From contig OX442314.1 in the NCBI GenBank assembly GCA_949358305.1, forward strand, positions 26,474,001-26,538,000: a stretch of 64,000 bases of DNA, read 5' to 3'. The DNA comes from Strigamia acuminata (Eukaryota). Positions within the stretch are counted from its first letter, which is position 1. The number at the start of each line of letters is the position of its first letter. Below, piece after piece: positions 3,255-56,774 of the stretch. The position numbers and the translations under genes are program-made. Under the pieces are notes generated by a model, which had not been told where the DNA came from, made no database searches, and saw only the letters and a program-made list of their open reading frames with translations.

Positions 3255-6219
<2,965 letters not shown>

Positions 6220-25537: not shown

Positions 25538-26129
25538 CCATCACCAGTATTATTGCATGGATAAAACAACCAAATACGTATGAAATTCATACAATACATG
25601 AATCTATAGTTATGCAACCTGCTGCATCAAACAGGAATAAAGCAAAGTGCACAAATGTCAACAATCAAGAGATACTTTTAAAATGCTTTGACAAATGGTT
25701 GGCTGTAACTACAAATTCTTGAAAAATAATTACAAAAAAAAGTAAATTGAGAAACAGAAAAATAAAATTGTTAGCTCCTCCTTCTTAATGTACACTAACC
25801 AAAAATATATTGTAACACTAAATTCCCACTAGTTGCCCAGAACATTTAACCTAATGGCTAACCAAAATGTTGCTAGTTTAGGCACAGAGCTGAAACTACC
25901 AAGTTTACATGAATTGAGTGCTACCTGCTAATCGGCCTACTACCATGTACAATTTATAGGTAATGCATTCATCAGTTTAATAGTTTTTCTGTAGTTCTGT
26001 GAGAACCGAGACTTGTAAAGATGAAGCAACTAATTAGTTTATTTCAGGCTGAATTTTAAGGAAGGGTTGGGCAAAGTACAAGTGAAAAGTACAAGAATTT
26101 GTTATTTGATATTTTAAGCAATAAGGCGA

Positions 26130-26340
26130 TAATATTCGATATTACTAGCGATATTATTCGATATTACTAGCGATATTATTCGATATTACTAGCGATATTA
26201 TTCGATATTACGAGCAATATTATTCGATATTACTAGCAATATTATTCGATATTACTAGCAATATTATTCGATATTACTAGCAATATTATTCAATATTACT
26301 AGCAATATTATTCGATATTACTAGCAATATTATTTGATAA
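26130..26340. repeat. 22-bp minisatellite (ATATTACTAGCGATATTATTCG)n
   Basis: ~9 tandem copies. Confidence 0.9.
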
Positions 26341-29966: not shown

Positions 29967-30962
29967 TGTGGTGACCCGACTGGGGTGGGGCACGAAGAGT
30001 TTCTCTCGTGGCCTACATACGGGTAAAGAAGGGGAGTCGCACGCGCGCCTCCCTTCCCTCAGAGCATTGACATCCAGTCAATGGACGGGCGTCTGCCCTG
30101 GGGGAGTGGGGGAGATTCGTCTTCTCCACTATTGGGTGGCTTTAGTCACCTGTCACCCCCCGCTTTGTGCAAAGGAATTCGCCTTGCACTGAGCGGAGAG
30201 AACCAACACAAAAATCAACCAAGATACACGTAAAAGCCAAACGTCCTAAAACGATCAAGCCTAAGTACAAAGACTTCAGGAGTGACCTAGGACAAGGGAC
30301 TTTCAACGTGAGTACGATTGATTTGTGTTAACCTCCGCAGAGTAACCTGCGAAACAAGATTACCACACTATTTTAGCAAGCCAGCTAGAAATAGTAAACC
30401 TACTCCAATTTAGCGAGTTGTGCAGACAAACGGTCGCACAAGCCTAAATTGCAGTAACCACGACGAGCGTTCCCGCCGCTGTGTGTATCGCCGGGAACCA
30501 CCAAGCGTCCGCCGCTGTGTGATCGCCGGACACCTACAAAAAACCCTAAACCTAGACAACAGACCAGAAGTAAGACCTTTCAGGCATTCACTCGCGCCCG
30601 ACCAGCGTGAGCCCGAAGGACCGAACGAGAAACGTGAGACGAGGACGCCATTCATTGCCACGCCGGCCCAAGACGACACCACGTTGCCACGCGGACGCCA
30701 TCTTGGATCCACAGCGACAAAGGACGACCTCGACCAGTTTCCCGCCAACTTCACACCCCTTTCCTTTTACCTTTTTATTCCCTTACATATTTTATTCCCT
30801 TTTAACTGTATATTCCCGTATAATAAATACATTTATTATATTTACCTTTTACATTGTCTTGCCGTGTTACATTATTTGGGTAACCGCTTGAGTAAAGCGG
30901 TATTGCGAGATCAGAGAGTGACTCATACCACGTATCAGCGACAGACCGAGTTGAGCGCGACA
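29967..30962 (+). repeat. 5' LTR of element 1
   Basis: Direct repeat of 42493-43488; TG...CA ends; AATAAA near 30822. Confidence 0.97.
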
Positions 30963-31030
30963 CGTGGGGGCCTGTCCGGGATCGATTTAAACGACTCGAA
31001 TAGAACTTGAGATCATTTTCATACCCAAAA

Positions 31031-34000
31031 ATGGCAGACAATATCCGAGTAACGGATTCCGACTCCGACGCGAACAAGAGAGCCGGCAGTCGTAAAGGCG
31101 CCGACTATCACTTGCGATCTGGAGGTCCCTTACCCAAAGCCTCAGCGCACGAAGCGAGGCAAAAACGGCGCAAGCCTAAACCCGATCGCAGAAGCGCATC
31201 AGAGGCATCGCACCCGTCTCGTTCCGAGACGAGGCAGCGATTGGACGAGACAGAGCGGGGTGAAGAGCAATCTCACTCCAAACTGCCGCGTTCTAACCGT
31301 GACGGCGAGACGAGCGGAAACGAGGTTTTATCCCGTAACCCATCGCCTCGTCTAACGCACGACACCGAGGTGGGCAGTCCGAAAGCGGCGTCTCCGATAC
31401 AAAAGACGGCCTCAAACACGACAGCTAATTCGGCACTAAACACGCCAATTACGCAAAGCCGCCCAGCTTCGGTCAGGTCCGAAGGACACAAGTCCAATGC
31501 GTCAAAAACTGAGCGTGTTCCGAGCCAGCCTTACAGCGTCTCGGCCACATTGGTTGACACGATGCAGTTGGCACAGGCAGAAGGTGTACGATACACTCTG
31601 CCAACGGGAAAAATAACTGTGTACGAAACATTACAAATCGTACGTGCAGCTTTAAGAGCGCACAGGTTATCCCCAGAAATCACCGTTGTTGAAGACGCAT
31701 ACGCTCAACAAATGGTAGACTCCGCTCAATTCGAAGCGGATGCCGAGAATGAGGCCCGACAAGCCATCCGCGAGAGAAAGCGGAAGCTGGCGGAAAGAGA
31801 AGCGCGAGCTCTCGAGTACGGCAAATCCCAGCGCGTTCCGACTACTCCAGAAGAAGTCGAAATAGTTGATCGAGCCTTACATGCACATCGTTATGCATTC
31901 CGTTCTCAACAAGAAGCTGAACAAGCTTTCATGACTAGGCTGCAACGAGACAAACCAAAATCCGTTCGCAAGCCAGAAGTTAGCTCGTCCGAATTGTCCG
32001 ACGAGAGCGTAGAAGGCGACCCGAAGCGCACGCCGAAGGTCAGCCCCAAACCCGAGCGAAAAAAGGAAGTGCCAGTCACTCCACGCAAACGGGAAGTCTC
32101 GACCGAACAACGCGTTCGACCTCGCATGATGGCGTTAGACGATAACACTAACAACGCTATCAACCGATTAATAAATGCGAACAACGCGCGTCGTAACGAA
32201 GAACAGACTCACACGAGCCGACAACGCGACGACCCGCGGGGTAACGACTGGCAACAGCCGGTACCCATCCTCAAAGACGACGGACCTTCGAGAAAACCTT
32301 CCGAAGACCGCACATCGTCACGAGAGGAACGTCAACGCGAAAGAGGACAGCAACAGTATCACTACGGAAACAGTGATTCGTCGTCGGATGAACTGGAGTC
32401 GAATGCACCCAGTCATCACGATTCGGAGAGAGGTTCCGGAGAAAGACGAAGGGAAAGAGAACGCGATGAACGCAGGGAAAGGGAACGTGACGACCGTCGT
32501 AGGGGCCGGAAAGAGTCAAACTCTTCACGGCGCAACCCGCCACGCCGCTCACCGTCTCCTGACCCCAGCTCCGACCCCTCGTCCAACGACGACAGACGAA
32601 ATGATAAGTCAAGTAATCGCCGGAAGAGATCCAACTCTCCGCGCGATAGAGAGAAACGACGTCGATCGGAAAATAGCGACCACCGACGGGAGGAGTTTCA
32701 GGACCTTCCCCGACAAAGCGCGTTTACCGATTCGACGGGTCGGCAGTATACGATGGGAGAGCTTGGAAGAGCCCTGCTTGGCTCGTTAAAAGCCGAAGGA
32801 ATCGATCTGAGCAAACGAAATGATCGTAATCGTAACACTGGTGACCGCGTAAAGAAAAAATACGCTGTCTCCCGACGTGACACCATGAGTGTTACCGGGA
32901 ATATTAGGTGGCAATTTTATATTCAGAACCGTTTCGACGGGTCATGGAAAGCGGGAGATCGCTTCCTTGACGAAGTAATTCGGATTAAGACTGCCACTAA
33001 AGCCACCGTAGGAGACATGCTCACCCACGGTATTGTCGAGCTAATGACAGGCTCGGCACGTGAGTGGTACCAAGGATTGAAAGGCGTCAATTGGGACGAC
33101 TTTTTAATGAGATTCGACCTGCGCTACGGCGAGACACCCGAAGAGGTGAGCCGAAAGATGCGAGGTCTTCGCCAGATGCCTGGTGAAACCATAATGGATT
33201 ACGACATTCGCGCCAGATTGTTGTTCGAAAAGGCCCCGATGGAATTTCATGCCACGGGATTCAACCTTTTCTTTCTCGGCGGTTTGTCGGAATACTCGCA
33301 ACGGGTGCTACTTGAAGAAAGGGCACCGACAGGAGGCAGCTACGAAGAAATGAGCGCCTTCCTGTTCGAGAACACGATAGATATCGAGAAGAGATATTAT
33401 TCCGCTTTACCAGAAGCGGAGAAAGCAGCAACCGCTAAACGTCTCAAGTTGAGTGCGGAAAGATATGGGGCGACAGACAAAATCATGCGCCCTACTGAAT
33501 ATCTTAGCGGTATAATGGAGCTGGCAGAAGCTAGCGTTGGTTTACAAATAAAAAATAAACTGACATCCACGCTGCCTTCCAACCCATTGGCCGCCCCTAA
33601 AAAGGCACCGACAGCGTCAGCCATGCAAGCGACACTGGAGGAGGTCAAGGAGGGGGAGGAAGCCGAACAAAATGTCGGAAAATCAGACGAAAAAGAAGAA
33701 AAAGACGATTATTCGACGGACGAAGAAATACGAAGCTATCGCGATACCTTATCAACGGGTTGCGATGAGGAAGGACCGCTAGTACATCTCATCCATCGAG
33801 ATAGAGCGGTAGAAGAATTTCGCGCCAGGTTAAAACCAAATGCCGGCCGAATTCCGAAGTATTTTCGAAAAAATTACACGCCACCGTCGAAAGTAGACCC
33901 TGAAAAAAAGAAATCGATTGAAGCCCCAAGAGACAAATCAAATATTCGTTGTTTTAAGTGTAACCAACCGGGTCACTATTCCAATGAGTGCCCAAGAACA

Positions 34001-34111
34001 GCGAAAGAAGACGCTAAGTTTGACGCGATAATGAAGCAGATGGCAGAGATTAAACTCGCCATGGCAAAAAACGAGTCAAAAAACGAGTCAGCGCAGGCGG
34101 CGAAGAAATAA
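31031..34111 (+). CDS. gag: Gag, ~1026 aa (long disordered N-terminus, capsid domain, CCHC knuckle)
   Basis: ATG at 31031; capsid-like LMTGSAREWYQGLKGVNWDDFLMRFDLRYG..LRQMPGETIMDY; CFKCNQPGHYSNEC. Confidence 0.92.
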   Translation: MADNIRVTDSDSDANKRAGSRKGADYHLRSGGPLPKASAHEARQKRRKPKPDRRSASEASHPSRSETRQRLDETERGEEQSHSKLPRSNRDGETSGNEVLSRNPSPRLTHDTEVGSPKAASPIQKTASNTTANSALNTPITQSRPASVRSEGHKSNASKTERVPSQPYSVSATLVDTMQLAQAEGVRYTLPTGKITVYETLQIVRAALRAHRLSPEITVVEDAYAQQMVDSAQFEADAENEARQAIRERKRKLAEREARALEYGKSQRVPTTPEEVEIVDRALHAHRYAFRSQQEAEQAFMTRLQRDKPKSVRKPEVSSSELSDESVEGDPKRTPKVSPKPERKKEVPVTPRKREVSTEQRVRPRMMALDDNTNNAINRLINANNARRNEEQTHTSRQRDDPRGNDWQQPVPILKDDGPSRKPSEDRTSSREERQRERGQQQYHYGNSDSSSDELESNAPSHHDSERGSGERRRERERDERRERERDDRRRGRKESNSSRRNPPRRSPSPDPSSDPSSNDDRRNDKSSNRRKRSNSPRDREKRRRSENSDHRREEFQDLPRQSAFTDSTGRQYTMGELGRALLGSLKAEGIDLSKRNDRNRNTGDRVKKKYAVSRRDTMSVTGNIRWQFYIQNRFDGSWKAGDRFLDEVIRIKTATKATVGDMLTHGIVELMTGSAREWYQGLKGVNWDDFLMRFDLRYGETPEEVSRKMRGLRQMPGETIMDYDIRARLLFEKAPMEFHATGFNLFFLGGLSEYSQRVLLEERAPTGGSYEEMSAFLFENTIDIEKRYYSALPEAEKAATAKRLKLSAERYGATDKIMRPTEYLSGIMELAEASVGLQIKNKLTSTLPSNPLAAPKKAPTASAMQATLEEVKEGEEAEQNVGKSDEKEEKDDYSTDEEIRSYRDTLSTGCDEEGPLVHLIHRDRAVEEFRARLKPNAGRIPKYFRKNYTPPSKVDPEKKKSIEAPRDKSNIRCFKCNQPGHYSNECPRTAKEDAKFDAIMKQMAEIKLAMAKNESKNESAQAAKK

Positions 34112-37100
34112 CTTCTCGACCGTCTGCGCCATTCATGAAGAAGAAGGGGTTTAACAAAGGGTTCGATAAACCGCCACCAGTCAAAGAAATGGGTAGTGAC
34201 ATAGCTAACGCCCAGATCCAAGACAGGGCCAACAACGCTTTGCAGGTAATTACCGCAAACGCTGAGGCTGAGGCGGAAGAACCAAACCTACTGCTTGAAG
34301 AATTACCTCAAGTAGTCGAAGACACAGAAGAATTTCGTGTTTTCATGTGCAACGTGGCGGTCGAATATACCAGCCGCCTATGTATGCTGCCCATGACAAT
34401 AGAACGCGAAAAAATTATGGGACTGCTAGACTCGGGAGCAGATCGCTCGTTCGTTTCCGAAGACATAGTAGCATCATTGGGTCTCACCGATAAGATAAAA
34501 GGCGTTAATAAAAATGTACGTCTAAAAACCGCCAACGGAATGGCGCGTCCAAAAGGAGTTATAATATTGACCATGGAGTGGCTCGGAGGGGTAGAACAGC
34601 ACCCTTTCCTGGTCCTGCCCACGTGCGACAGAATTTTTCTGTTGGGCTTAGACCTCATGGCGTCAATGGAAATACAACCAAATCCAATAACGAAATCTTG
34701 GAATTATATCAGAAATGATAGAGAAAGACCCGCAATTGTCGTGCCACCAGCTCTTATCAAAGAAGCGGCCGACAAGACACAGTGGGAGAAAGGCCTAAAG
34801 AAATTCGTTCAAGACTACAATTTTAAAGCATTCGTAGCAGAATTGCAACGGGACAATGTAGTGGAAACGCTTGTCGCCGACGCCGCTTTAGAATTAAACG
34901 AAGCGGCAGCCCTACGAAGGGTCCTACTTAAATATGAGGGGATCCTGTCGAAAAAACCGGGCCGAACGAATAGGGCTATTCACGAGATTAAATTGACGGA
35001 TAATAAACCTATACGAGTTGCGTATAAGGGAATGAACCCGCAAAAACGTGAAATAGTACAAAAAATGTGCCAAGAAATGCTAGACAGTGGCATTGTCTCC
35101 GAGGCCCAGGGAGAATACGCGACGCGAGTTGTGCTCGTGATGCGCCCGGGCTCGGACCCACGCCTATGCATTGATTACCGCCCATTAAACGCGGTGACAG
35201 AGATAGATCCCATACAGATGCCGTCTATCGAATCCATTTTGAGAGAGCTTAGCCCCTTTTCTTGGGTTACGACGATGGATCTGTCGAAGGGATACTGGCA
35301 AGTTGAGATGAGGCCAGAGGATAAGCTAAAAACAGCATTTTACTCGCCAATTGGACGGTTGATGTTCAACGTCATGCCGTTTGGTTTAGTGAATGCTCCC
35401 AGTACCTTTCAGAGACTAATCGAAAGCGTATTGGGTGATATCCTGCATCAGTTCGTGTGGGCATACCTAGATGACATAGTTATTGCCTCTAAAACATTCG
35501 AAGAGCACATTGAGCACATCGACCAAGTGCTCACCCGGCTGGCGAAAGCTGGGTTACACGTTCATCCGGGCAAGAGCAAGTTCTGCCGAAAGGAGCTTGC
35601 CTTCCTGGGTTATCGCATTGGAGTCAACGGTTTAGCTATTGGCCCCGAAAAAATCGATGCGATTAATCGTTTCCCACCACCCGAGGACGTTAAAGGTGTC
35701 CAACGGTTTATGGGAATGATAAACTTCTTCGGCAGGTTGCTACCGGGTCTAGCTGAAGTGGCAGCCCCAGTTACCGACCTCCTGAAGAATGAAAACGAAT
35801 TTGTATGGTCAAATGAGTGCAACATCGCATTTAATGCGATAAAGAGGATGCTGACGGAAGTCGGCGTAATGCCTCTACCCGACTTAAACCGGCCGTTCAT
35901 ATTACATACGGACGCCAGCAGAGTTGGGTTAGGAGCGGCGTTGCTCCAAACACACGTGCGCGACGGAGTCGAACAAGACCTGCCGTGCATGTTTATAAGT
36001 CGCAAACTCCAAGGCGCTGAAAAAAATTACAACGCCACAGAGTTGGAGTGTTTGGCAGTTGTGTGGGCTATAAGGAAATTCAGAGATTATCTCGAATATA
36101 CCAAATTTGTAGTCCACACAGATCATCAAGCGTTACAATGGCTGATGAAATTAAAGGAGCCAGCCGGTCGACTAGCCAGATGGCAGTTAGAACTGATGGC
36201 ATGCGACTTGACCATTCAATACAAGCCCGGCAAATATAACGTCGTGGCTGACGCTCTATCAAGGGCACCAGTGTCAGATCCTATCGACGCTGACGATGAT
36301 GGCGAGGATGATTCCCGCATCATTTACTGCCCGACGAGTTGTCACCGTTGGGATTTAAGGAAAATAAATGAAATTCCCACCGCGTCTCCAGCAGATGTAA
36401 AATTCTGTGGATTCTGGACGCGGTTATACCAACCAGCTGCTGACAATTACCCAAATGCAAAGAAGGAACTTAAGCTAGAGCGGAGAATAAATGACCCGCT
36501 TCTAAGCGCCTTCCACACTCATGTCGGCAAGCAAATGCGAAGCAATCCCCCGACAAGGGAGGAAATAATTGTGCAACAAAAATTAGACAAGAAATGTCAG
36601 GATAGAGCTAGATTCGTACTGACAGGAAAATATCCGCCCAACTTAACCAGAAGGCAGAAGCGTCGTTATGCACACGAATCCATAGATTACCTATTGGATG
36701 ACGGCCTTTTGGTGAAACATCACCCAAATCACCAAGATGACTTGAGTGAATCGGACACCGCAGTAAAGGTAGTAATACCTGCTTCCTTAATCGGTCGCGT
36801 GCTGTGGTTGTTACACGGGCACCCGCTTGCGAGCCATGCGGGAGTAAGCAGAACACTCTATCGTGCTACACAGCTTTTTCACTGGACAGGGATGAAAAAA
36901 GATATTGCTCTTTTTGTCCACCAATGTCAGCGATGTCAAGCGTGCAAGCCGAGGAGTAAATCACCATTCGAAACTATTTTCTTAGGGCCTTACGCGCCTT
37001 TTGATTGTTTAAGTGTCGATGTGATGGGCCCAAAACCCGTTACGGGAAATAAAAATGCGTACATTATCGTTATAATGGACGTGGCGACTCGTTGGCCCGA

Positions 37101-38205
37101 GTTGTACGCCGTCGCTAGACCTTCAGCAGAAAAAATCGTTGAATGTATCTACGACGTAGCGTTACGTTACGGATTTCCACGTAAAATGATATCCGACAAC
37201 GGACCCCAATTTATCTCGAAAATTTGGGGTAAGTTTTGTGAGAAATTCGGGATTGTGGCGTCACATACTTCGACCTACAATCCCAGAACAAATCCCGTTG
37301 AGCGACTCAACAGGGACATTAAATATGCACTAAGTATATTCACTGACATCCACAATAGGTGGGATGAATACTTGAGGGAGATCGCGTTCAGCATACGAAC
37401 AACAGTCTCGAGGACGAGAGATTTTTCTCCGGCCTACCTCAACTTCGCCCGGGAGCTACGAGTGCCTTGGGACCCACGAGTGGCAGAGTCAGTAAATGTG
37501 GTGGACCCCGAGAAACCACATGAGTACGTGTATAAATTGGAGCAAACCATCTCCAACACGTACAAGCACATGATGGCGCACATTTTTAACATGCGCGACC
37601 GCATTTTACAAGATAAAAGCGGTGGAAAATTCGTGAATTTCGAGATTAATGATTTAGTGTGGAAGGACACACACATCCTCTCAAATGCAGCGAGAGGAAT
37701 CACCGCCAGCTTGGCCGACAAAAGAGACGGTCCGTATGTGATCATCGGCAAGCATGGCGGTAACGCGTATAAATTACGTAAGCTCGAGGACAATACCGAG
37801 CACAAATCGATCCAGGTACGAGAGTTAACTCCGTACATTCCGGAATTCCCGCAAGAAATGTGGGCCAAGGGCCAAGTCAAGTCAAAAACTGACGGCCAAA
37901 TCGTCGATATGTTCGCTGGCGAGTCGGAAAAAGCACCGCCAAGTGACAACGAGGAGTATTTCGACGCCCCTTCACCACCGGTAAACGAGATAGTTGAATC
38001 CGTTCCGGATCCAATTTTGGTCGGGGGGGAAACAGGAGAAACTCCTGAAACAAACACAAAAAACACGGATAAAAAAGAAAACAATAATGAGGAGGTACAG
38101 ACACAAAAAACAACAAAAAATATCGTACCTGTCTCGACTCATCACCTGCGGCCCCGTGGAAGTAATCCGTTTATAAAAGACGGAAAGGTCGTAGGAAAGG
38201 AGTAG
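34054..38205 (+). CDS. pol: Pol (protease-RT-RNase H-integrase), -1 frame relative to gag
   Basis: LLDSGA; MPFGLVNAP, YLDD; LHTDAS, ELECLAVVWAI; HGHPLASH...CQRC; DVMG/SDNGPQF/VERLN; GPY. The open frame begins at 34054 and overlaps gag. Confidence 0.97.
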   Translation, partial: TRHGKKRVKKRVSAGGEEITSRPSAPFMKKKGFNKGFDKPPPVKEMGSDIANAQIQDRANNALQVITANAEAEAEEPNLLLEELPQVVEDTEEFRVFMCNVAVEYTSRLCMLPMTIEREKIMGLLDSGADRSFVSEDIVASLGLTDKIKGVNKNVRLKTANGMARPKGVIILTMEWLGGVEQHPFLVLPTCDRIFLLGLDLMASMEIQPNPITKSWNYIRNDRERPAIVVPPALIKEAADKTQWEKGLKKFVQDYNFKAFVAELQRDNVVETLVADAALELNEAAALRRVLLKYEGILSKKPGRTNRAIHEIKLTDNKPIRVAYKGMNPQKREIVQKMCQEMLDSGIVSEAQGEYATRVVLVMRPGSDPRLCIDYRPLNAVTEIDPIQMPSIESILRELSPFSWVTTMDLSKGYWQVEMRPEDKLKTAFYSPIGRLMFNVMPFGLVNAPSTFQRLIESVLGDILHQFVWAYLDDIVIASKTFEEHIEHIDQVLTRLAKAGLHVHPGKSKFCRKELAFLGYRIGVNGLAIGPEKIDAINRFPPPEDVKGVQRFMGMINFFGRLLPGLAEVAAPVTDLLKNENEFVWSNECNIAFNAIKRMLTEVGVMPLPDLNRPFILHTDASRVGLGAALLQTHVRDGVEQDLPCMFISRKLQGAEKNYNATELECLAVVWAIRKFRDYLEYTKFVVHTDHQALQWLMKLKEPAGRLARWQLELMACDLTIQYKPGKYNVVADALSRAPVSDPIDADDDGEDDSRIIYCPTSCHRWDLRKINEIPTASPADVKFCGFWTRLYQPAADNYPNAKKELKLERRINDPLLSAFHTHVGKQMRSNPPTREEIIVQQKLDKKCQDRARFVLTGKYPPNLTRRQKRRYAHESIDYLLDDGLLVKHHPNHQDDLSESDTAVKVVIPASLIGRVLWLLHGHPLASHAGVSRTLYRATQLFHWTGMKKDIALFVHQCQRCQACKPRSKSPFETIFLGPYAPFDCLSVDVMGPKPVTGNKNAYIIVIMDVATRWPELYAVARPSAEKIVECIYDVALRYGFPRKMISDNGPQFISKIWGKFCEKFGIVASHTSTYNPRTNPVERLNRDIKYALSIFTDIHNRWDEYLREIAFSIRTTVSRTRDFSPAYLNFARELRVPWDPRVAESVNVVDPEKPHEYVYKLEQTISNTYKHMMAHIFNMRDRILQDKSGGKFVNFEINDLVWKDTHILSNAARGITASLADKRDGPYVIIGKHGGNAYKLRKLEDNTEHKSIQVRELTPYIPEFPQEMWAKGQVKSKTDGQIVDMFAGESEKAPPSDNEEYFDAPSPPVNEIVESVPDPILVGGETGETPETNTKNTDKKENNNEEVQTQKTTKNIVPVSTHHLRPRGSNPFIKDGKVVGKE

Positions 38206-38685
38206 AAAACGTTACGAGTCGATGGCGACGCTGAAAAACAAAAAAATTGACCGATCGACAGCGCTAGCCATCAAAATCCGAGACTCTGAAAATTTCGCTA
38301 AGTCCAACAAAGCGGATATCGGTCGAATTCGCGTCACGAGATGGCGTGGAAACGCGGGACCCGTAGCAAAATTATCGGCACGGGTCGGATACCGCGTGCA
38401 AAAGACCCCGTAGCAGCGATCGCGCACGGGCGTAGAAACAAAGGAGCCCCGTAACGTAACATGCGCACGGGCTGTTGCGCACAGTCATAAGCACCTGGTT
38501 CTGGAGTAAAATTACCCAGAACCCACCACGATTGCCTCGTTTTCACCCGGACTTCCGCTAAAATCAGCTGATCGTCGTCCGCACGTGATACACAGCGAGT
38601 GCATTTTTAACCAAGTTTTTGATCCATTTTACGAGAAGTTTTCAAGTTTTTTAATCGTGGTCTGACTGAACGCGCAATCCTCACG

Positions 38686-41600
38686 ATGGATGAGGAAGGA
38701 GGGGACGAGGAAATGCTTGAAATACAGCATCATGACGAGAATTGGGACCCGGACATAAACGTAGTTCCACCCGATCAGGTAGTAGTCGGCATCGCCGCAC
38801 GAGATTTAGCTCCGTGCGGTCGAATTAAAGATACACTTGACTAATACTTGACATGAACGCTCTGCGTTCGAAATAGTGTATAATTATTATACTAATATCC
38901 ACGATCGCGAGAGCGATTGTATTTTCTCCTATTATTTGTCTTCAAGGACGCGATAGCAGACAAACTGTCGCCTCGCTCCTTGAAGATGACTCACGACAAT
39001 TGACACGAACGAGACAAAGGAAACGAGCTTTCTTTTTATATTCCAGAAATGGGAATAATTTATTGGATGGATTTTGAAAGAATTTATAGAACGTTGTTTC
39101 TATTTTTATTTGCTATTTTATTTGCGAATTTTTTCCCGATGACACTAATTTATTATAGATTCGTTTTTTAACTCGACTTTAACTCCGAATTTTTGGAGTT
39201 ATTATTAGACAAATTTATTTCTTTACAAGTTAATTCACGACAAGAACATTTGTTTACATGTTCTAAAATTGTTATTGGAGATTTTCACGAACGATTTCGC
39301 GAATTTATTGGTTTAAATACAAATTTACAGTTTAATTTTAAATTAAGCAATCCGAAGAAAAATTTCCGGATTAATACGCTCGATTCCGTCTCGTGGTTAT
39401 CATTGGACGTGAACCAGATGTGCCAAGAAGACTCTTTTCTTCCTGACAAGGACGAATCAATGAACAGGAATAGGACTCGACGAGCGGTCGCACGTTTCAG
39501 CGACGTTCCTCGAGCCCACCCCCTATTTATCTCCGTGTTATTGGCGATTTCATTAATTATTTTGTTTCCATCATTGCAGATGGAGCTCCGAGACACATGG
39601 GGAGCGCTCAGCCCCGCATGCATAGTGCGAGCGGGCATATATCGAGGCGTACTGCCCGATTTTCTGCGCCGCTGCTTTGGCGAAGATGCGAAGCCATACC
39701 GCCTGCGCGTATTATTTTCGCGCGCCCTCGCCAAGCGTTGGGTTAACGATTGTACACTCCTGGACGCGTTCCCGGAGTCGGTGCGAAACGTCGTCGCTGC
39801 AGAGCTCGCTCGCATCGATGACCCGAAGTCACCAATCTTCCACCCGGCCCTGTCGAGCCAATACTCCGGCAGGCCGGCGGAGGAGCATGTGTTGTTCGCG
39901 TGGCAAGCGGCCGAGACCGAGGAGGCCCGCGAAGAAGTGTATCAACACTACCGCCAGCAGCTAATCGACACTGCGCCGGCGGTTGCAGAGCGGATTTTGC
40001 AAGACGACGGAATGAGCACCGCCGATATACATCTGTGGTGCGAGCAGATTCGGCAGGGAGAAGTTACGCCACAGTGGCGACCGAGAATGGGGATTCTCAC
40101 GTCACAAGCTGAAATGTGGCAACTCCACTATTTGGGAATTCTCGGCCCCAAATATAATTTCCCAAGGAAGCGCAAGCGCTCCAAGGGAACCGGGGGCAGC
40201 GAATCGCGCTCCCCGGGACGGTCGAAGAAACAGTGCGTCGAACAGCACTCGACCGTCAACGATGGAGCGGGAACGTCAGCGCAGCCACCGCGCGACCCCG
40301 CGAATTACACCAGACCAAGGGTGTTCGTCAACCGTCAGATGAAAGACGGTAAAGAGACTCGAGAAGTCTGGATTTCGGGTGACGAAGAGCGAGTCTCTCG
40401 TCCCCGTGTCGGCAGACATCCGCTAACTCATCGTGAGCAGCGGAAACGAGACCGCAAAGAGCGGTATTTCGCTCGCTGCGAGGCGCGAGGAATTCCCCTT
40501 CCCGAACACGCTCTCAAAGCAATCGAAGCGAAGGAAGCGAGAGAGGCACGATCGAAGTCGAGTGGCCGATCTTCCGGGGAGCGTCGCGTCCTAGCGCCAG
40601 ACACGCGGGACCTTCGCGAGATCATCACCCAGATGAAACGCAAGAAATTGTCTCGTTTCGACCCCGCGATGCAGTTCGCTCGCAAGATGGGCGTCGTCGA
40701 GCATGGTACCGTGATTCCACACGAAGTGGCACGGTGGTTAAGCGAATATGTCAATTCGCGACCGCGTGTAGAAAACGCGCCTACGGCCGTCGTTCCACCG
40801 ACGAGTACTGTAAGCCAGCTCCCGGCACTCCAAGTCACGCCGACTGGAGTGCAAGCGACGCTGCCACCGCCAACACAACAGTCTTTGACGTTGCTGTTGC
40901 CGACGCAGTCATCAACGTCGCAACCGTTGCCAGCACAGCAGTCCCTGACGCTGCCGCCGCCGACACAGCCGCTGCCGCCGCCGACGCAGCCCCCGCCGCC
41001 GCCGCCGCCGATGCCGGGTTCGAGCACTACGCCGAACTTGGCCGTCGACGACTCGGTGATGTTGCCCGTTCACCAGAGCATTGCGCGGGAATGCCATAAC
41101 GCCCGATTCGGAGAATATTACCCGAGCAAGGCAAGACACGACCGCACCGCGATGTGGTATGAACAGCGTGACGAAAACGCACGGCTGGCTCGAGAAGCAG
41201 CCAATCCATCGATCGAAGAGCTCTTGGCCTTCGCATTTGTGATGGAGGACCCGAGAGCCGCCGCCGCTGCTCTGCAGGGCGCCGACGTCACTCAGCGCCA
41301 TTTCATCGAGTGGGGGATTTCGATGATGCGGCACCACTCGCGCGCGTTCGCTGCAGATCCTGATCGCAGCAACCCTGTAAATCGGCGCAGTCTACAGCTG
41401 GCTTTGACGAAGATCATGGTCCAGTTATTGACCCCCTCGCTCTTTGGGGTCGGACGACAGGCGATGGCCTGTTGGTCCGTAGTCGACAGAGAGGGTGTGC
41501 AGATACCTCGCGCACTCGTTGGGGAATGGAGCGCCATTCTCCCCAACCCGGCGATGACTCGCTTCGAGCTGACCCGGGACGTGGTGAACCCCGAATGGGA

Positions 41601-42453
41601 GGGGTATAAGTTGCGGAGCATGGCCTTCCGCCACGCCGTTACCACGTGGGAGCCAACACCGTCAGCGCAGTCACACGCAATGATGGTCACGAGTGAAGAG
41701 CCGATGGAGAGCGACGCCGCCTCTTCGACTGCTTCACGTGGAGCCCCAACTCCACCTCCGCCGCCACCGCCGCCACCGATGCCACCAGCGGCGACACCAC
41801 AGACACCCGTCCTATCAAATGCGGCGGGTAGACCCAGACGCTTGTTATGTCGGACGCCACCAACGATGTCCGCCGCTCGCCAGAGCCTGACGCCTCCCGC
41901 AGCCCAACAAGCGCGGGAAGAGACTGTCCAACAAGCGGTAGTTCCGAAGAGCGCCAAGCCAGCGAAAGCGGCGAAGCTTCAGACGAACTATTATGAGAAG
42001 TTGTGTGACGAGTTCTCTCAGCTGTCGATGACGACGGCGACGCGCAAATTCATCCTCGCGCAGAGAGACAAGGGGAAATCGGTATTCGTTTGGCTACACA
42101 ACCAGGTGCGCCAGACCACCGATTTGATCCTCCATCAGCGTTTGCTGAGGGCCCACCGTGCGCCTCGAACGGCCGCGGAGGCGAACGCAATCCGGCACAC
42201 CAATTCCGGGTTTTCGGCGTTCATTCCGCGGGTTTGGCTGCATGAGAGGAGGCGTGCCCCGTACGAGCCAGCCGGCGGCCACGATTTGTGCTTTATTTCC
42301 GAGCACAAGGACCCCCGCGACCAGTCTTCAGCCTTGGTTGGAGATCTGGTTTTGCCGCCCGGCGCTGTGCCGCCCGGCGCTGAGCCGCCCGTCCCTGGAG
42401 TGAGTTTCGCCCAGGCGATGGATCCAGCGTCGGGTCCCAGCAAGAAGGATTGA
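38686..42453 (+). CDS. Uncharacterised non-Env accessory protein of element 1 (main exon 39580-42453, 957 aa; putative acidic upstream exon 38686-38778)
   Basis: Long intact ORF ending just before the PPT. Homology to the element-2 ORF begins exactly at acceptor TTTCCATCATTGCAG|ATG (39580). The upstream exon is inferred. Confidence 0.75.
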
Positions 42454-42492
42454 TCGCTCCGAACACCGGCGGTCAGAGCTGGGAGGGGGACG

Positions 42493-43488
42493 TGTGGTGA
42501 CCCGACTGGGGTGGGGCACGAAGAGTTTCTCTCGTGGCCTACATACGGGTAAAGAAGGGGAGTCGCACGCGCGCCTCCCTTCCCTCAGAGCATTGACATC
42601 CAGTCAATGGACGGGCGTCTGCCCTGGGGGAGTGGGGGAGATTCGTCTTCTCCACTATTGGGTGGCTTTAGTCACCTGTCACCCCCCGCTTTGTGCAAAG
42701 GAATTCGCCTTGCACTGAGCGGAGAGAACCAACACAAAAATCAACCAAGATACACGTAAAAGCCAAACGTCCTAAAACGATCAAGCCTAAGTACAAAGAC
42801 TTCAGGAGTGACCTAGGACAAGGGACTTTCAACGTGAGTACGATTGATTTGTGTTAACCTCCGCAGAGTAACCTGCGAAACAAGATTACCACACTATTTT
42901 AGCAAGCCAGCTAGAAATAGTAAACCTACTCCAATTTAGCGAGTTGTGCAGACAAACGGTCGCACAAGCCTAAATTGCAGTAACCACGACGAGCGTTCCC
43001 GCCGCTGTGTGTATCGCCGGGAACCACCAAGCGTCCGCCGCTGTGTGATCGCCGGACACCTACAAAAAACCCTAAACCTAGACAACAGACCAGAAGTAAG
43101 ACCTTTCAGGCATTCACTCGCGCCCGACCAGCGTGAGCCCGAAGGACCGAACGAGAAACGTGAGACGAGGACGCCATTCATTGCCACGCCGGCCCAAGAC
43201 GACACCACGTTGCCACGCGGACGCCATCTTGGATCCACAGCGACAAAGGACGACCTCGACCAGTTTCCCGCCAACTTCACACCCCTTTCCTTTTACCTTT
43301 TTATTCCCTTACATATTTTATTCCCTTTTAACTGTATATTCCCGTATAATAAATACATTTATTATATTTACCTTTTACATTGTCTTGCCGTGTTACATTA
43401 TTTGGGTAACCGCTTGAGTAAAGCGGTATTGCGAGATCAGAGAGTGACTCATACCACGTATCAGCGACAGACCGAGTTGAGCGCGACA
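42493..43488 (+). repeat. 3' LTR of element 1
   Basis: No difference from the 5' LTR noticed by eye; the ORF-track peptides from both LTRs are identical over the shared region. Confidence 0.97.
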
Positions 43489-45722
43489 AAATATCTTGTA
43501 CAGCAAAATTATGTACCCCAAGCATAATTTCAACTCAAATAATTCCTTCTTTCCATTACAATATCTCTATAGGAATTGAACCTGTGAGTAAAATACAAAT
43601 AATGTAAACTTTTTATTTCTTTTTTAATCATTTATTTTTAGTTTATGCCTGATGCAATTGTGATTAAAAAATATGACAATGGAACAATTTTGTTTCGTGG
43701 ATTTGTCTATGACTTATTGATTTCTTACCTCTGTCCCACAATGAAATTAAGGTTTGTGTCATTAAATAGAGAAACTACTGAACTAAAATTAATTTTTTTT
43801 TGTAAATAGTGTGATCGAAGTGTATGGAGACCATTTAAATAATGAAGCAATCTATGAAATGATAATTAAAAAAGTAAATATGGGTCATAGAATGTAAAAT
43901 GCACTATTTTTCCATATAGTTTAAAGAAATTTCTTAAAACGGGATGCGTCTTAACCCTAACAGTACAAACCTAAAATGCCTACTCACCCAACCGGGTCAT
44001 TTCGATGATTTTAGTAAAAAAAAGTTAGTTTGGACCAACAAAAGACATTTTGGACCATAACAAATGACATTTTGGGCTACAACAAATGACATATTCTACC
44101 TAAAAATTATGTTTTTCTTTTAAAATCCAAATAATGTCTAATTATTATTTTACGTGTTTTCTTAGAAAATTGATACAAGCACTACACCCTACATTATGAC
44201 ATCATGTCGAGTTCCCTATGTGGACAGTGTGGCTTTAGAAATGAAGCGTGATAATTTGGCAATTGCAGTAGTACTTTCATCTCAAATCGAAGACTTCATG
44301 TGGTTCACATTCATCAAACCATTCAGTTGTAACATGTGGATTTGCTCAATTTTGCTTAGTCTTTTGTTAAAATTTATTTTTGAAGCAATTCTTCGTACAA
44401 AGAAATTGGACAATTCAAATACTCGTAAGTTATATTGCTTGTTGACACAGACCAAGCAAGCCAGCTCTGAACATTCAATCCAATTGATGCGGCGATCCGG
44501 GTTTTTACTTAATAAATCGGGGAGACTTATAAAGCAATCGTCGTAGAAATGCCGTACAGGACTTCTACTCTGTGGCCAAATGTTTGTCTAGGGGAATGAT
44601 TTTACACAGAGTAAAGGAAAAATTAGATAGTTTTAATCGTTCAAAATACAAAGGAGGTATTATTTAAAATGTTTGGGGTCGATCTGGCTTCTTCTTCAAA
44701 TGTACACTCACAGTTGACCGTTGGCTCCAAGATGGCGTCGATGGCGTCGTGTGAGCGCGGGATTTTAGCGGAGTAAACTCAACGCTAAAATACCTTGCTG
44801 AATATACTAAAATCCTCGTGGAGCACGCTCGACACGAGAATACGTCTTGCACACAGCGGTTCGATTATTACGGAGCAAGCTCGACGTAACAATCGGTCTT
44901 TACACAAATCGCTTTGTGGAGTTAAACTCGACACAAAGCCTTCAAACTAACAGAGTAAACTCGATGTTAGTTTCACACAGAAATGGCTTAAATTACGCGT
45001 AGTAATTCAAGCTAGAAAGTTGCTATTCCGTACAGTGGGTACAGACCAGCGATGAAACTCAATTCGTCCAAGAATCACAGATCACACTTTGCAGTTTTGG
45101 CAGAAGTTTGACACGGTTGTGAACAGTTTGGAGGTAGAATCAAGAGTGCGGGAAGAGTGGGCCAAAACCGTTTGGCTCACTTCTAAATCTGCTCAGAAAA
45201 GCTGCGCAGATGACGAGTTGCACAAAGATCACACACGGCCGCCTTCGGGTCGTGTGCAACAATTGAGCCGGGCACGCGCGAGGGGAAGGGATGCTCCGCC
45301 CAGGCACACGCCTAGCAGCATCATCAAAGCAATGCACGCTGCAGCGTGATTGGTTGACGCTGTTGCTGGGCCAAAACTTGCTGCAAAACACAATATTATT
45401 TGGGTAATATTGTGTCTTGTTTTATATTTTATTAATGTATGTTTTATTTCAATTTACATTGAAACAAAACATATAAGCTTGTTGAATATGTTTATAAGAC
45501 AATTTGGAAATATGGTGCGCACTCAAATAGGAATATTTGAGGTCACCACACTTCCCCCCCTTTTAAGAAAGAATCTTATTCTTTTCCAAAAAGAGACAGG
45601 TAAGTATAGGAATAAATACACAAGGTTTCAAAGTAAAAATGGAACAGGATATTTATTCTTTTTTATTACAGTAAAAAAAAATAAAAAAGGAATTATTTTT
45701 AATGAATGGGCATGTTCCCTAA

Positions 45723-48558
45723 TTATTTAGGCAACATGTCCGTTGAATGATCGTTTGGATCTTTGTGCTCTGTGACGGTGCACAAAGATCGGCCGGCGTT
45801 TGGTCCTGACCGGAAGCCAGGGTTGATGTGGAGCCACACTTGCTTTATGCGGTCTACACCATCCCTTCGTCCAAAACCCATCTCGAAATACTCCTGCGGG
45901 TCTTGAGGCGTAATTCGGGCGAACACCAGGCGTTGATGTAGGATCCACGGCTGTTGTTCCTTGATGTGGTTTTCCAGCCACGCGAGGACTCGGTTGCATA
46001 AATCTTCGCTGTTCTGGAGAATCGTTTTCGTCGCGCTCGTTATGTAGCAAAAGGCGTATAACGAGCGCAAACGTTGATAGGCGGTGAGGTGGGTGGCCAT
46101 ATTTGATCCCCTATCTCTCGGCGGCGAATCCTTTGGAGGAGGCGGCGGTGGTGGCGACTTCTTGCAGATCGAGAGGGATCTGGATCTGCGCGAAGCCGGG
46201 GCGCGCGTCTTTGGTCTGGCACCGCTGGCCACAGGCACGACGAACTCGCGATCGTCGCTGTCGAGCCACTCCATTGGAGACGAGATGTTGCAACTCGGTG
46301 CCTCGGTTGCACGGGAAACACTCGACGTTGCCGTGATGGCAGCGTGGAGTGGAGCTGCGGATGACGGTGGTGCGCCAGCGGGACGGGCGGTGGCTCGTTC
46401 CGTTGTGCGCTGCTGCTTCAGTGTAGCCCATTCCTGCCGTAGTCGAATGGCGGATCCAGCCGGAGTTTCGCCAGTCGCCTCGGCTTGTTGCGTCAATTCG
46501 GCGAGCATCGTTGGAGGATCGGGGCGAACTGACTCCCAATCGCCCAGCAAGGCTCGTGGAAGCCCTAACGGCACGGTCCACAATCGAGTGGCGGCCGCCA
46601 GAGCAATCTGTGGGTCGGGAAAGACTCCTTGGAACAGGATTCGAAGAAGTCCCTCCGACAACTTCCTGTTCATCTTCTGCAGCGCCCGTTGCAGTTGCTT
46701 GTCGGACTTGCACGACGCAAGCTCTCGCGCAAGCCATTGCCATTCCTTCTCACCTTCGCGGATCTGAGCGAGTTGGTATTCGTCCAGATGCGCGAGGTAC
46801 ATCGCTTGGGCTGTCTCGGGAAACGATGAGAATCGCCTCCAGAGATCAGCGCACTCCTGTGCTGGAAATGGTTCGGGAGGAACGTATCCCTCGAAACGGA
46901 TGACAGTTGTCACTTGTGGCACGGGCACAGACGTATCGGGTCGCATGTCGCTGGTGACTGGACGGCAAGCGAACGGCAAAGAGGTGTTGACGTCTCCTTG
47001 ACCGGCTTACAATGCGGCGATGCGTTGATCTTCTTTCGCTATCTCGTCCGACCAGTCAATCCGGCCGGAGGAGGAAGCGCTAAGCTGTGAAGCGTTGGAC
47101 CTTTCTTCACGCGACGAGAGTGAACTCCTCGTGGAAGATTGGCGCGATTGCACTCGAGGTCGGCTTCGGGATGTGGGTCTCGACACGGACTTCGAATGTC
47201 TTTTTGGCGGCGTCGACTCGCGTCGGTGATGTGAGCGATGACGAGCTTTCTGGAGTGGAGGTAACCCTCCAATGGCGCCTTCCCCCGACGACTGTGTTGG
47301 GGAGGAGCGACGGCCACTGTAGGGCGACCTCGATGATCGTGACCTCGACGTGGAGCGCGGTGGCACCACGTGGATGGTGGAAGCGACCTGTACCCGGGGC
47401 TCGGGCTCTGGATACGGGTTTGGCACGAAATCAGCATGGAAACATCCGCCCATGGCTAGTTGATGCATCTCCGATTGGCATGTCGGCACCCAACGTTTCT
47501 TTCCGTCTGTGGTTGGCCGGAAAGATTCGTGGTAGAGGCGCACAACCTCGGCCTTGGTTTGATCAAGACGTTGGAAAATGTCCTCCAAAATCTGTCGACG
47601 CTCCCACGCAGGAGCGTTGAAATAACGGCGATGGTCTCGCGTTTCTTGAGCGATCACTACGAAGGCGAAGTCGAGCAACACGTTTCGTAGTGGTCCGAAG
47701 GTGTCGCGCTTCATTGCCCATTCGAGGGCGTCGCGATGACCGAATCCATCGATTAAATAGGCGATCCGAAACTTTGTTCCCCATCGCTTGTTTAAGGCTT
47801 TGGAGAATTTGTGTCGGGCCGCCCAAAACGTCAGTCTTCCTTTAGACTTGATGATTTCTGGCGGCAATGCATGTCGCCAGACTCCAGGAGCTGTTGGAAC
47901 ATCGGGGTGCAGTTCGAGATGTGTTTCCCGAAGCTGGATGATCTGTAAAATATTCGAAGAAATAATTAAAATCCATTTTTTCGCTAAAATTAATTATTTC
48001 CGAATTTTCAGTGAATAAAATCACGGGTGAGATTTCATTCGACGGTTTAGATTCGTTAAATTTTTCAAAACATTTGAAAAATCGTGAAAAACGTTGTCTC
48101 TGACGGCTATGTTTCAGTGTTTGGAGCGTTACCGTAGCAACGCCTCAAAAATGAGACACAGCGCCATCTGATGGTAAAAATGGCGGCGTCTTCTTGCGAA
48201 GACGTTACCAACGAACTTTTTGCTTTTTCCGAGTGAAAATGCACTTTTAATTACTTTTCATGACTGAAAGGTAATTTTATTTTAAATTATTTACCCGTTC
48301 GTGTCTCTGTGCACGAGTTTCGCCGTTTGGATCGGCGAATAGGCCTCCTCGTAGTTGTGGTCGGGGCGGCGTGACTGGCAAACGGGCTGCAGCGTCGGCC
48401 AGAGCGGCTTGAGCTTCGGCTGACGCTTCGGCGGATGCCTCGGTGACATCCACGGATGCATTCGAGGTGTTTGCGGAACCAAGCAACGTCGAATTTGTTT
48501 CTAATTCGAGGCTGTTGGCGCCGGCTTCGCTTCCTTCTTTCGGTTCCTCTTCTTCCAT
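45723..48558 (-). CDS. Accessory protein of element 2 (exons 48558-48295 and 47942-45723; in-frame TAA at 47009-47007)
   Basis: Phase-0 donor CGG|GTAAAT (48294) and acceptor TTTTACAG|ATC (47942). ORFs 47007..47867 and 45723..46979 share a frame, and both align by eye to element-1 ORF3. Confidence 0.7.
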
Positions 48559-48764
48559 TTGAACGACTAATCCAAATGGAAAAGAAAAACGAAAATTAAT
48601 TTATTAGTTTTTCCTTGGAAAATTCCAAAGAAAAAACTACTTACAATCGGAGATTCTGGGACAATTAATCCTGTCGTTTCGCTTTTGGTTTGGGATGAGC
48701 ACTTAACACACGTGTGAGATCGAAGTGAACTCAGACGCGAAGTGATCAGTTCAAATACCGGAAG

Positions 48765-56130: not shown

Positions 56131-56774
56131 TTTGTCAAATTGAAAAAGAACAATGGAAATAAAGGATCTTTTTGCAAAAATCGGATTTTAACAATCAAAA
56201 CTATCCCGGACGGGCCCCCAAGTGCGGCGATCCGGGTTTTTACTTAATAAATCGGGGAGACTTATAAAGCAATCGTCGTAGAGATGCCGTACAGGACTTC
56301 TACTCTGTGGCCAAATGTTTGTCTAGGGGAATGATTTTACACAGAGTAAAGGAAAAATTAGATAGTTTTAATCGTTCAAAATACAAAGGAGGTATTATTT
56401 AAAATGTTTGGGGTCGATCTGGCTTCTTCTTCAAATGTACACTCACAGTTGACCGTTGGCTCCAAGATGGCGTCGATGGCGTCGTGTGAGCGCGGGATTT
56501 TAGCGGAGTAAACTCAACGCTAAAATACCTTGCTGAATATACTAAAATCCTCGTGGAGCACGCTCGACACGAGAATACGTCTTGCACACAGCGGTTCGAT
56601 TATTACGGAGCAAGCTCGACGTAACAATCGGTCTTTACACAAATCGCTTTGTGGAGTTAAACTCGACACAAAGCCTTCAAACTAACAGAGTAAACTCGAT
56701 GTTAGTTTCACACAGAAATGGCTTAAATTACGCGTAGTAATTCAAGCTAGAAAGTTGCTATTCCGTACAGTGGG

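What the first reader, a model, noticed from the sequence alone, without database searches (positions are those of the whole stretch)
39580..42453. Large non-Env accessory protein conserved in two divergent gypsy families
Seen: both elements carry a long sense ORF between pol and the PPT (element 1 39580-42453; element 2 47942-45723). Their LTR interiors look unrelated, yet three protein blocks align by eye. N block: ELRDTWGALSP..GIYRGVLP / QLRETHLELHP..GVWRHALP; FSRALAKRW / FSKALNKRW; SQAEMWQL / CQSEMHQL. Middle block: IPRALVGEWSAILPNP..ELT / LPRALLGDWESVRPDP..ELT. C block: TATRKFI..VFVWL..ILHQRL..RVWLH..LCFISEHKDPRDQS / SATKTIL..VLAWL..ILHQRL..QVWLH..LCTVTEHKDPNDHS. The blocks are separated by non-conserved Arg/Ser- and poly-Pro-rich linkers with NLS-like basic runs (PRKRKRS). 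I see no signal peptide or TM anchor in the homologous region. Known: the usual third ORF of gypsy elements (errantivirus Env) is a membrane glycoprotein. Inference: this is a selected, soluble and probably nuclear accessory factor of unknown fold, e.g. an anti-silencing factor, a transactivator, a Rev-like RNA export factor, or an enzyme using the conserved H/C/E/D residues of the C block.
Basis: partly seen in the sequence, partly recalled or inferred. Interest (0 to 1): 0.88.

Follow-up and report, generated by a model that had tools for sequence, protein, structure and literature searches.

The report
Intron-split orphan gene in gypsy retrotransposons
Two related, recently inserted jumping genes in an animal genome carry, where a viral envelope gene would sit, a large conserved gene with no known relatives that is interrupted by an intron (shown for one element, predicted for the other), and its protein likely helps the element control the splicing or export of its own RNA.

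Summary
The three blocks align above chance (0 of 500 shuffles each) at 29-30% identity, like Gag capsid (31%). Variants among element-1 copies are 22 synonymous to 9 non-synonymous (pN/pS 0.13-0.18). The 'ORF' is exon 2 of a spliced gene. Both elements have an upstream acidic exon 1 in phase 0, and contigs of both available runs skip the predicted 352-nt GT..AG intron of element 2 exactly; no such joint was seen for element 1. The elements are sisters (RT 62%; best database RT 41-44%), so sharing is inheritance. Sequence searches (up to 1.84 billion proteins) found no true homologue, and low-confidence models found no fold match. Best mechanism (about 35-40%): a CERV/Rev-like regulator that keeps genomic RNA unspliced, since about 99% of depth retains a spliceable intron. 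Non-env third ORFs are a known class; this is a new, orphan, intron-split variant.

The parts
29967..30962 (+). Element 1 5' LTR (996 bp, TG...CA), 4-bp TSD AAAT
   Evidence: 100% identical to 42493-43488; ends and TSD
30965..30982 (+). Element 1 PBS, tRNA-Pro-like (label recalled, from no call)
   Evidence: same motif in element 2 at 56220
31031..34111 (+). Element 1 gag (Retrotrans_gag, CCHC knuckle); A AAA AAC slippery-like sites at 34066 and 34078
34054..38205 (+). Element 1 pol PR-RT-RH-IN, intact, in the -1 frame to gag
38551..38587 (+). Candidate internal promoter motifs ACTTCCG..CTGATC..CACGTG, 135 nt upstream of exon 1; picked post hoc
   Evidence: the flanking regions do not align above chance (77 of 500 shuffles as good)
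38686..38778 (+). Element 1 predicted exon 1: ATG-led, 31 codons, 12 acidic, ends in phase 0 at a GT donor
   Evidence: the only listed indel in it is 3 nt
38779..39579 (+). Element 1 predicted intron (801 nt, GT..AG, GC 0.37)
   Evidence: 10 of the 12 listed indels fall here; no spliced joint among 12 joints
39580..42453 (+).
42481..42490 (+). Element 1 polypurine tract
42493..43488 (+). Element 1 3' LTR
44488..45550 (-). Element 2 3' LTR (1063 bp), PPT just upstream on the minus strand, TSD TCAA
45723..47942 (-). Element 2 exon 2 region, homologous to element 1 exon 2; in-frame TAA at 47009-47007
46951..47010 (-). Candidate 60-nt second intron (GTAAG donor overlapping the TAA, frame-neutral); unproven
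   Evidence: not seen skipped in the listed rows
47943..48294 (-). Element 2 intron (352 nt, GT..AG, GC 0.34), skipped exactly in contigs of both runs
   Evidence: predicted; joint 47942->48295, CT..AC on +, X1 depth 915 and X2 depth 235
48295..48558 (-). Element 2 exon 1: ATG-led, 88 codons, acidic and Ala-rich, phase 0
48567..48644 (-). Candidate 78-nt 5'-UTR intron of element 2; its acceptor lies 8 nt before the ATG; untested
48709..48765 (-). Element 2 copy of the candidate internal promoter motifs
48765..53311 (-). Element 2 pol, broken in this copy by a frameshift near 51,200-51,290
53233..56130 (-). Element 2 gag; slippery-like site at 53245
56223..58670 (-). Element 2 5' end: full LTR (58670-57608), 834 nt of duplicated flank, then a 552-nt LTR end before the PBS

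Best explanation
This is a conserved, non-envelope accessory gene of one Ty3/gypsy lineage, split by an intron (shown for element 2, predicted for element 1), and its soluble protein likely acts in the nucleus on the element's own RNA to keep the genomic transcript unspliced and get it exported, as CERV does for Cer1 and Rev for HIV. Shown: coding constraint, no membrane segment, shared exon-intron layout, exact intron skipping in element-2 contigs, and intron retention in about 99% of the summed depth there. Inferred: a short transcript (internal promoter, or a spliced LTR transcript) is spliced from the acidic exon 1 to the N-M-C exon. The protein has about 990 residues in element 1; in element 2 it has about 810 or 400, depending on the candidate second intron. 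Its Arg- and RS-rich linker binds RNA. It protects full-length RNA from splicing, so most new insertions keep the intron and only rare copies lose it.
For: Constraint: 22 synonymous vs 9 non-synonymous variants in E1 exon 2 (31 of the 40 rows shown, of 169; pN/pS 0.13-0.18; p<1e-5). At most 4 of 16 indels lie in the exon, which is 73% of the stretch (p=7e-5). E2 has 7 synonymous of 12 (p=0.03). Block identity is 29-30% vs 31% for Gag capsid. Gene structure: two phase-0 exon 1s and acceptors sit at the same place before the N block. The E2 intron predicted was then found skipped to the base in both runs. A diverged E1 relative aligns again from 39547, the acceptor region, onward. The two introns do not align (237 of 500 shuffles as good), yet their position is kept. 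Regulatory problem: the intron lies downstream of pol, so a spliced genome would still encode Gag, Pol and the accessory protein, yet the skipped form is about 1.1-1.3% of summed depth. Composition: RS/SR dipeptides 15 (E1) and 25 (E2); basic linker in both. Precedent: CERV is a large spliced-mRNA product with three domains joined by flexible linkers, required for export of unspliced Cer1 RNA (PMC10309623, sections 9 and 15 read).
Against: No functional or RNA data. No spliced joint was found for element 1 among 12 listed joints. The kind of the two runs is not on record, they come from one study, and the tool warns that summed depth is no copy number, so the 1% is rough. Intron retention can be achieved by cis-acting RNA elements without a protein (MPMV, PMC10309623 section 15), or can follow from needed sequence inside the intron. 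Element 2 has no classical NLS. Gag in these elements is also Arg/Ser-rich, so that signature is not specific. The M block has no invariant Cys, unlike CERV's Cys loop. The conserved His/Cys/Glu/Asp set of the C block is not explained by this model.
Confidence: 0.37

Rival explanations
1. Anti-silencing factor: the protein is made early from an internal promoter and blocks piRNA, RNAi or chromatin silencing of the family, in the manner of plant VANC proteins or viral RNAi suppressors (both recalled).
For: Both families look abundant and recently active: LTRs 100% and 99.9% identical; single 0-2-difference contigs at depth 4500-5800 against 100-165 for flanking single-copy DNA in X2. Fast-evolving linkers, an acidic N-terminal exon and shared promoter-like motifs fit an independently expressed host-conflict protein.
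Against: The structured blocks are under purifying selection (M block 9 syn: 1 nonsyn). The model does not explain why the intron is kept. There is no GW repeat pattern (2 and 1 GW/WG). Weak structural rows to Ebola VP35 (Z 3.6-4.2, about 55 residues, rmsd about 3) are at background level.
Confidence: 0.23
2. The C block is a small metal-binding enzyme (nuclease, deaminase or hydrolase) carried on a scaffold, like the DEDDy and GDSL ORF3s of bdelloid elements.
For: Invariant H53, H89, C105, E109, H110, D112 and D115 in the two-sequence alignment. The model gives helices followed by two strands. Enzymatic ORF3s are known (PMC5408684, passages read).
Against: No Pfam, PHROG or PDB sequence hit. 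Two sequences cannot separate catalytic from structural residues. Two of the four listed C-block variants are non-synonymous.
Confidence: 0.15
3. Transactivator of the LTR, expressed from an internal promoter, as in foamy-virus Tas (recalled).
For: Acidic exon 1 (12 of 31 and 16 of 88 residues), Pro-rich stretches, a basic region, and candidate internal promoter motifs in the same order in both elements.
Against: The promoter motifs were chosen post hoc and the regions do not align above chance. The LTR interiors are unrelated while the blocks are conserved. No DNA-binding family hit.
Confidence: 0.12
4. Cytoplasmic or particle-associated helper (assembly scaffold, transport or cell-to-cell transfer aid without a membrane anchor).
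For: It sits in the env slot and evolves at the rate of Gag capsid. Poly-Pro runs could recruit cytoskeletal or trafficking adaptors (inference).
Against: Element 1 has NLS-like runs. The poly-Pro runs are not positionally conserved. There is no TM, unlike sORF2 (PMC11952523, passages read).
Confidence: 0.09
5. A diverged Env or fusogen, or a non-coding artefact of GC-rich DNA.
For: Env position behind a splice acceptor. The open frame upstream of the E1 ATG (39172-39579) has a hydrophobic stretch (KD 2.46) that could mimic a signal peptide.
Against: That hydrophobic stretch is the polypyrimidine tract, and family members carry frameshifting indels in that frame (39190-39519). No TM, few sequons, no Env Pfam hit. 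Selection excludes an artefact.
Confidence: 0.04

Closest known systems
CERV of C. elegans Cer1 (PMC10309623; abstract, sections 9 and 15 read)
   Same: Large accessory protein of a Ty3/gypsy element, made from a spliced mRNA, three predicted domains joined by flexible linkers, no homologues outside its lineage, element keeps canonical splice sites in its genome.
   Different: CERV (517 aa) shares exons 1-3 and their frame with gag, has a Cys loop and a G-protein-like domain, and has a shown function. Here both exons lie downstream of pol, the M block has no invariant Cys, and function is untested. No direct sequence comparison was run.
Non-env ORF3s of bdelloid LTR retrotransposons: DEDDy exonuclease, GDSL esterase (PMC5408684; passages read)
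   Same: Family-specific sense ORF3 between pol and the 3' LTR in an animal, not Env.
   Different: Those have recognisable captured folds. This one has no Pfam or PDB sequence match and has its own intron.
Errantivirus Env (PMC13524379, passages read; general features from established knowledge)
   Same: Position between pol and PPT; expression through a splice acceptor.
   Different: No signal peptide, no TM, few sequons. The env intron removes gag-pol (recalled); here the intron is short and leaves gag-pol intact.
Plant additional ORFs: Retand TRP28, Grande, Athila env-like (PMC7264820 part 1 of 3; PMC11963269 abstract)
   Same: [quoted passage not shown]
   Different: Those are antisense or carry TM segments, occur in plant lineages, and gave no Pfam match here.
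MDG1 sORF1/sORF2 (PMC11952523; passages read)
   Same: Env-less insect gypsy elements with selected accessory ORFs.
   Different: Those are 70-110 aa, lie upstream of gag and are unspliced, and sORF2 is a membrane protein.

Membership tests
Ty3/gypsy LTR retrotransposon (host elements) | LTRs, PBS, PPT, TSD | tested here: met
Ty3/gypsy LTR retrotransposon (host elements) | gag, then pol in the order PR-RT-RH-IN | tested here: met
   Pfam
Env (errantivirus F-type, gB-type, retroviral) | C-terminal TM anchor | tested here: not met
   max KD19 1.39 and 1.20; hydropathy scan only, no dedicated TM predictor
Env (errantivirus F-type, gB-type, retroviral) | N-terminal signal peptide | tested here: not met
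   exon 1 is acidic; the hydrophobic upstream frame is hit by frameshifting indels; SignalP not available
Env (errantivirus F-type, gB-type, retroviral) | Sequence or fold similarity to fusion glycoproteins | tested here: inconclusive
   no Pfam hit; fold searches used low-confidence models
Additional (non-env) ORF3 of LTR retrotransposons | Extra ORF between pol and the 3' LTR, kept across copies and families under selection | tested here: met
CERV/Rev-type RNA export factor | Made from a spliced element mRNA | tested here: inconclusive
   exact intron skip in E2 contigs of unrecorded kind; none for E1
CERV/Rev-type RNA export factor | Conserved Cys loop in the multimerising M domain (CERV) | tested here: not met
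   no invariant Cys in the M-block alignment of 2 sequences
CERV/Rev-type RNA export factor | NLS and NES | tested here: inconclusive
   NLS pattern 3 hits in E1, 0 in E2; the NES pattern is degenerate
CERV/Rev-type RNA export factor | Required for export of unspliced genomic RNA; binds it | not testable with these tools
   needs experiments
CERV/Rev-type RNA export factor | Sequence homology to CERV | not tested
   no CERV sequence was returned by any search; it did not surface or 41
DEDDy exonuclease / GDSL esterase ORF3 | Pfam-detectable catalytic domain | tested here: not met
   no such family up to E=1 (whole proteins) or E=10 (blocks)
sORF2/FAST-like fusogen | Short protein with one TM segment | tested here: not met

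The most novel reading that the evidence does not exclude
A previously undescribed gypsy lineage has evolved a complex-retrovirus-style regulatory cassette: an intron-split gene downstream of pol, with its own promoter, encoding a new three-domain protein family. The protein suppresses splicing of the genomic RNA and thereby preserves its own introns through retrotransposition. In element 2 a second, stop-containing 60-nt intron switches between a short N+RS product and the full N-M-C product. This would be an independent origin of Rev-like control with a new fold.
Probability: 0.2. Interest if true: 0.85.

Novelty: new variant of a known kind. Interest (0 to 1): 0.6.

Why it matters
Retrotransposons copy through RNA, so a spliceable intron whose loss leaves gag and pol intact should be lost quickly (inference). 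These two sister families have kept one at the same position while its sequence diverged beyond alignment, and rare intron-less copies indicate that the site can be spliced and copied. That makes the question of how an element keeps its genome unspliced directly testable. The protein is also an orphan family with three conserved blocks. If it is an export or splicing regulator, it is an independent parallel to Rev and CERV; if it is an anti-silencing factor, it would be a rare animal case. The general class, a non-env third ORF, is not new.

Tried and rejected
Homologue searches. C block vs the 5.8-billion set: 0 of 205 candidates passed, 526-1675 aa only. C-block profile vs 1.84 billion representatives: 2 hits, both rejected as repeat artefacts, a bacterial Ig/cadherin repeat protein and a tandem-repeat translation. 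N-block profile, longer proteins: 0 of 6064 at E<=1, weak evidence by the tool's own note. The M block got no large-database search. Viral contigs 0 of 35 pattern matches, metagenome contigs 0 of 76 (C block) and 0 of 598 (pol RH-IN region). PDB sequences: best E 0.73 and 0.45. Pfam and PHROGs on blocks and antisense frames: nothing above a curated cut-off; best E 0.068 (Bcl-2, E2 C block only) and 0.011 (phrog_9723, E1 only), rejected as not shared. None of the 120 fetched gypsy polyproteins holds an N- or C-like stretch (best E 0.36). ESM Atlas gave no result. Folds. AlphaFold2 mean pLDDT 41.7 (full length, single sequence) and 52.0 (C block, 2 sequences). Foldseek viral and PDB, and VIA-align, gave only generic helical matches, best Z 6.5 (57 aligned, rmsd 2.8) and 6.9 (52 aligned, rmsd 2.3); this shows neither a known nor a new fold. 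Complex of three M blocks: no verdict, score 0.00. Expression: no RNA holder listed. No whole genome is held for this window, so copies could not be aligned in full. Rejected readings: a signal peptide from the upstream open frame; horizontal sharing between unrelated families; a conserved promoter by alignment (77 of 500 shuffles as good). Literature: no description of this lineage or protein appeared in 9 searches. The library lacks most subscription papers and Repbase, and no supplements were read; the errantivirus tables of PMC13524379 could bear on the clade. Passages of PMC13269885 and PMC6431247 were read and added only general context.
Full report
Setting. The window is animal DNA with short introns: five junctions picked by eye in host genes measure 60-74 nt. 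It holds two convergent Ty3/gypsy elements. Element 1 (E1, 29967-43488, +) has identical 996-bp LTRs, a 4-bp TSD, and intact gag and pol. Element 2 (E2, minus strand) has 1063-bp LTRs that are 99.9% identical, a pol broken by a frameshift near 51,200-51,290, and a rearranged 5' end. Both share the first ten LTR bases, a PBS that I label tRNA-Pro-like from recall, and A AAA AAC slippery-like sites at the gag-pol junction.

The observation. E1 has the 957-codon ORF as stated. E2's stated ORF has an in-frame TAA at codon 312 and no start codon. The three blocks are real: N z=7.0, M z=9.6, C z=27.6, each 0 of 500 shuffles; BLASTP gives E=1e-16 for M+C and 8e-4 for N. Their identity (29, 30, 29%) matches that of the Gag capsid region (31%). 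Neither protein has a hydrophobic window above 1.4. The ORFs are GC-rich (0.61, 0.57; GC3 0.67, 0.59) against pol (0.47; 0.38-0.40).

Relationship. The RTs are 62% identical. The best of the 120 database proteins listed (of 3275 passing among 7976 scored) reach 41-44%. In a tree of 39 rows (E1, E2 and the 37 of 120 hits with at least 250 aligned columns and 40% identity) E1 and E2 pair at 100/100 on a long stem. The gene is therefore most simply inherited within one poorly sampled lineage. I could not name the clade, because no named reference RTs were on hand.

Gene structure, the main new result. Both ORFs begin directly behind a pyrimidine tract and CAG. Upstream, each element has an ATG-led acidic mini-exon ending at a GT in phase 0: E1 38686-38778, E2 48558-48295. 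After this prediction, contigs of two public runs were laid on the region. Both runs hold a joint 47942->48295 that skips exactly the predicted 352 nt with GT..AG ends (depth 915 and 235; sides 52 and 60 nt; the tool marks the letters between as 'not known'; 15 of 36 joints were shown). The runs' kind is not on record. They cover introns and single-copy flanks like DNA, so the joint is most likely a genomic copy made from spliced RNA. It is about 1.1-1.3% of summed depth, a rough figure because depth is no copy number. For E1 no such joint appears among 12 joints; this counts against, or at least fails to confirm, the E1 intron. Indirect support is strong, however. Of 16 indels, the 12 shown are all upstream of 39580: ten in the predicted intron, one before the ATG, and one 3-nt insertion in exon 1. 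At most 4 lie in exon 2, which is 73% of the stretch (p=7e-5). A diverged relative aligns again from the acceptor region at 39547. E2's TAA overlaps a GTAAG donor with an in-frame AG 60 nt on, a host-typical length. It is not among the 40 highest-share variant rows of 517, so it is probably not private to this copy. The segment is GC-rich and has an earlier out-of-frame AG, so this second intron is only a candidate. The motifs ACTTCCG..CTGATC..CACGTG precede exon 1 in both elements and occur in that order nowhere else in the window, but I picked them post hoc and the regions do not align above chance.

Selection. Among the 40 best-supported of 169 variant rows for E1, 31 fall in exon 2: 22 synonymous, 9 non-synonymous, no stop; pN/pS 0.13-0.18; p<1e-5. 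The M block has 9:1; the N and C blocks have only 2:2 each, so constraint on them rests on the between-family conservation. Both listed exon-1 variants of E1 are non-synonymous. E2 gives 7 synonymous of 12 (p=0.03), and 2 of 3 in exon 1. These are high-frequency contig variants from one study, not a codon-model dN/dS.

What the protein is. No true homologue was found for the C block among 1.84 billion representatives (2 hits, both repeat artefacts), nor for the N block, nor in Pfam, PHROGs, PDB sequences, or viral and metagenome contigs. The M block was tested only against Pfam and PHROGs. Models are low-confidence: N and M come out helical, C as helices plus two strands. Fold searches are uninformative. 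The C block keeps H-Q-R, W-L-H and C-x3-E-H-K-D-P-x-D, a possible metal site.

Mechanism. The intron lies downstream of pol. A spliced full-length RNA would still encode everything and can apparently be copied, yet nearly all copies keep the intron, and both families keep it at the same place although its sequence no longer aligns. Something keeps genomic RNA unspliced, or selection keeps the intron. Cer1 solves this problem with CERV, a large three-domain nuclear protein from a spliced mRNA (PMC10309623, sections 9 and 15). The basic and RS-rich linker here would suit RNA binding. I put this at 0.37. Against it: cis-acting export exists, E2 lacks a classical NLS, Gag is just as RS-rich, and the CERV Cys loop is absent. 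Rivals are anti-silencing (0.23), a C-block enzyme (0.15), a transactivator (0.12), a particle helper (0.09), and Env or artefact (0.04). It may work like CERV; it is not filed as a CERV.

Novelty. Non-env third ORFs are known in bdelloids (PMC5408684, passages) and plants (PMC7264820 part 1 of 3; PMC11963269 abstract). Five unchecked notes of this scan report such ORFs in other genomes, which lowered my novelty estimate for the class. None matched this protein by sequence. Nine literature searches showed no description of this lineage (listed under Tried and rejected). What is new is an orphan three-block family plus a self-contained, intron-split gene downstream of pol with rare intron-less copies. 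Verdict: new variant of a known kind, interest 0.6.

Noticed in passing
window 56223-58670 and 43654-45550: Element 2's 5' end reads full LTR, 834 nt of flank, then a 552-nt LTR end; the same LTR plus flank recurs at the 3' end (99.9%). This is a duplication followed by LTR recombination, or an assembly artefact.
   Followed up: partly
window 41008-41754 and 42144-42367: Two low-depth element-1 copies carry internal deletions in exon 2, removing the M block or part of the C block; both are frame-neutral. Two of two could be chance (1 in 9).
   Followed up: partly
window 63154-63999: Start of a third element's gag (Retrotrans_gag, E 0.006), unrelated by tblastn to the E1 gag; runs off the window.
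   Followed up: no
window 38200-48800: Both families look abundant and include subfamilies about 80-88% identical, with exons conserved and introns diverged.
   Followed up: partly
window 700-7500 and 15300-18700: Host genes that look like PWP2, HDAC3, ERCC8/CSA and LMBRD2 (labels recalled from the translations, not tested), with introns of about 60-74 nt.
   Followed up: no
window 24521-25573 and 58793-59853: An 86% identical duplicated segment on either side of the two elements; its translations resemble ionotropic-receptor exons (label recalled).
   Followed up: no
window 76-733, 2018-2807, 9930-10379, 20300-20680, 22299-22634, 26082-26383: Many AT-rich minisatellites with 20-22, 26 and 51-nt units, several sharing an AAAA-TGCA-TTTT core.
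   Followed up: no
window 30414-31010 and 42940-43527: A 195-codon open frame inside element 1's LTR, no Pfam hit; LTR indels in the family suggest it is non-coding.
   Followed up: partly
window 36250-36800 and 50400-50900: The RNase H-integrase linker is long and conserved between the two elements; it could serve as a lineage marker.
   Followed up: partly
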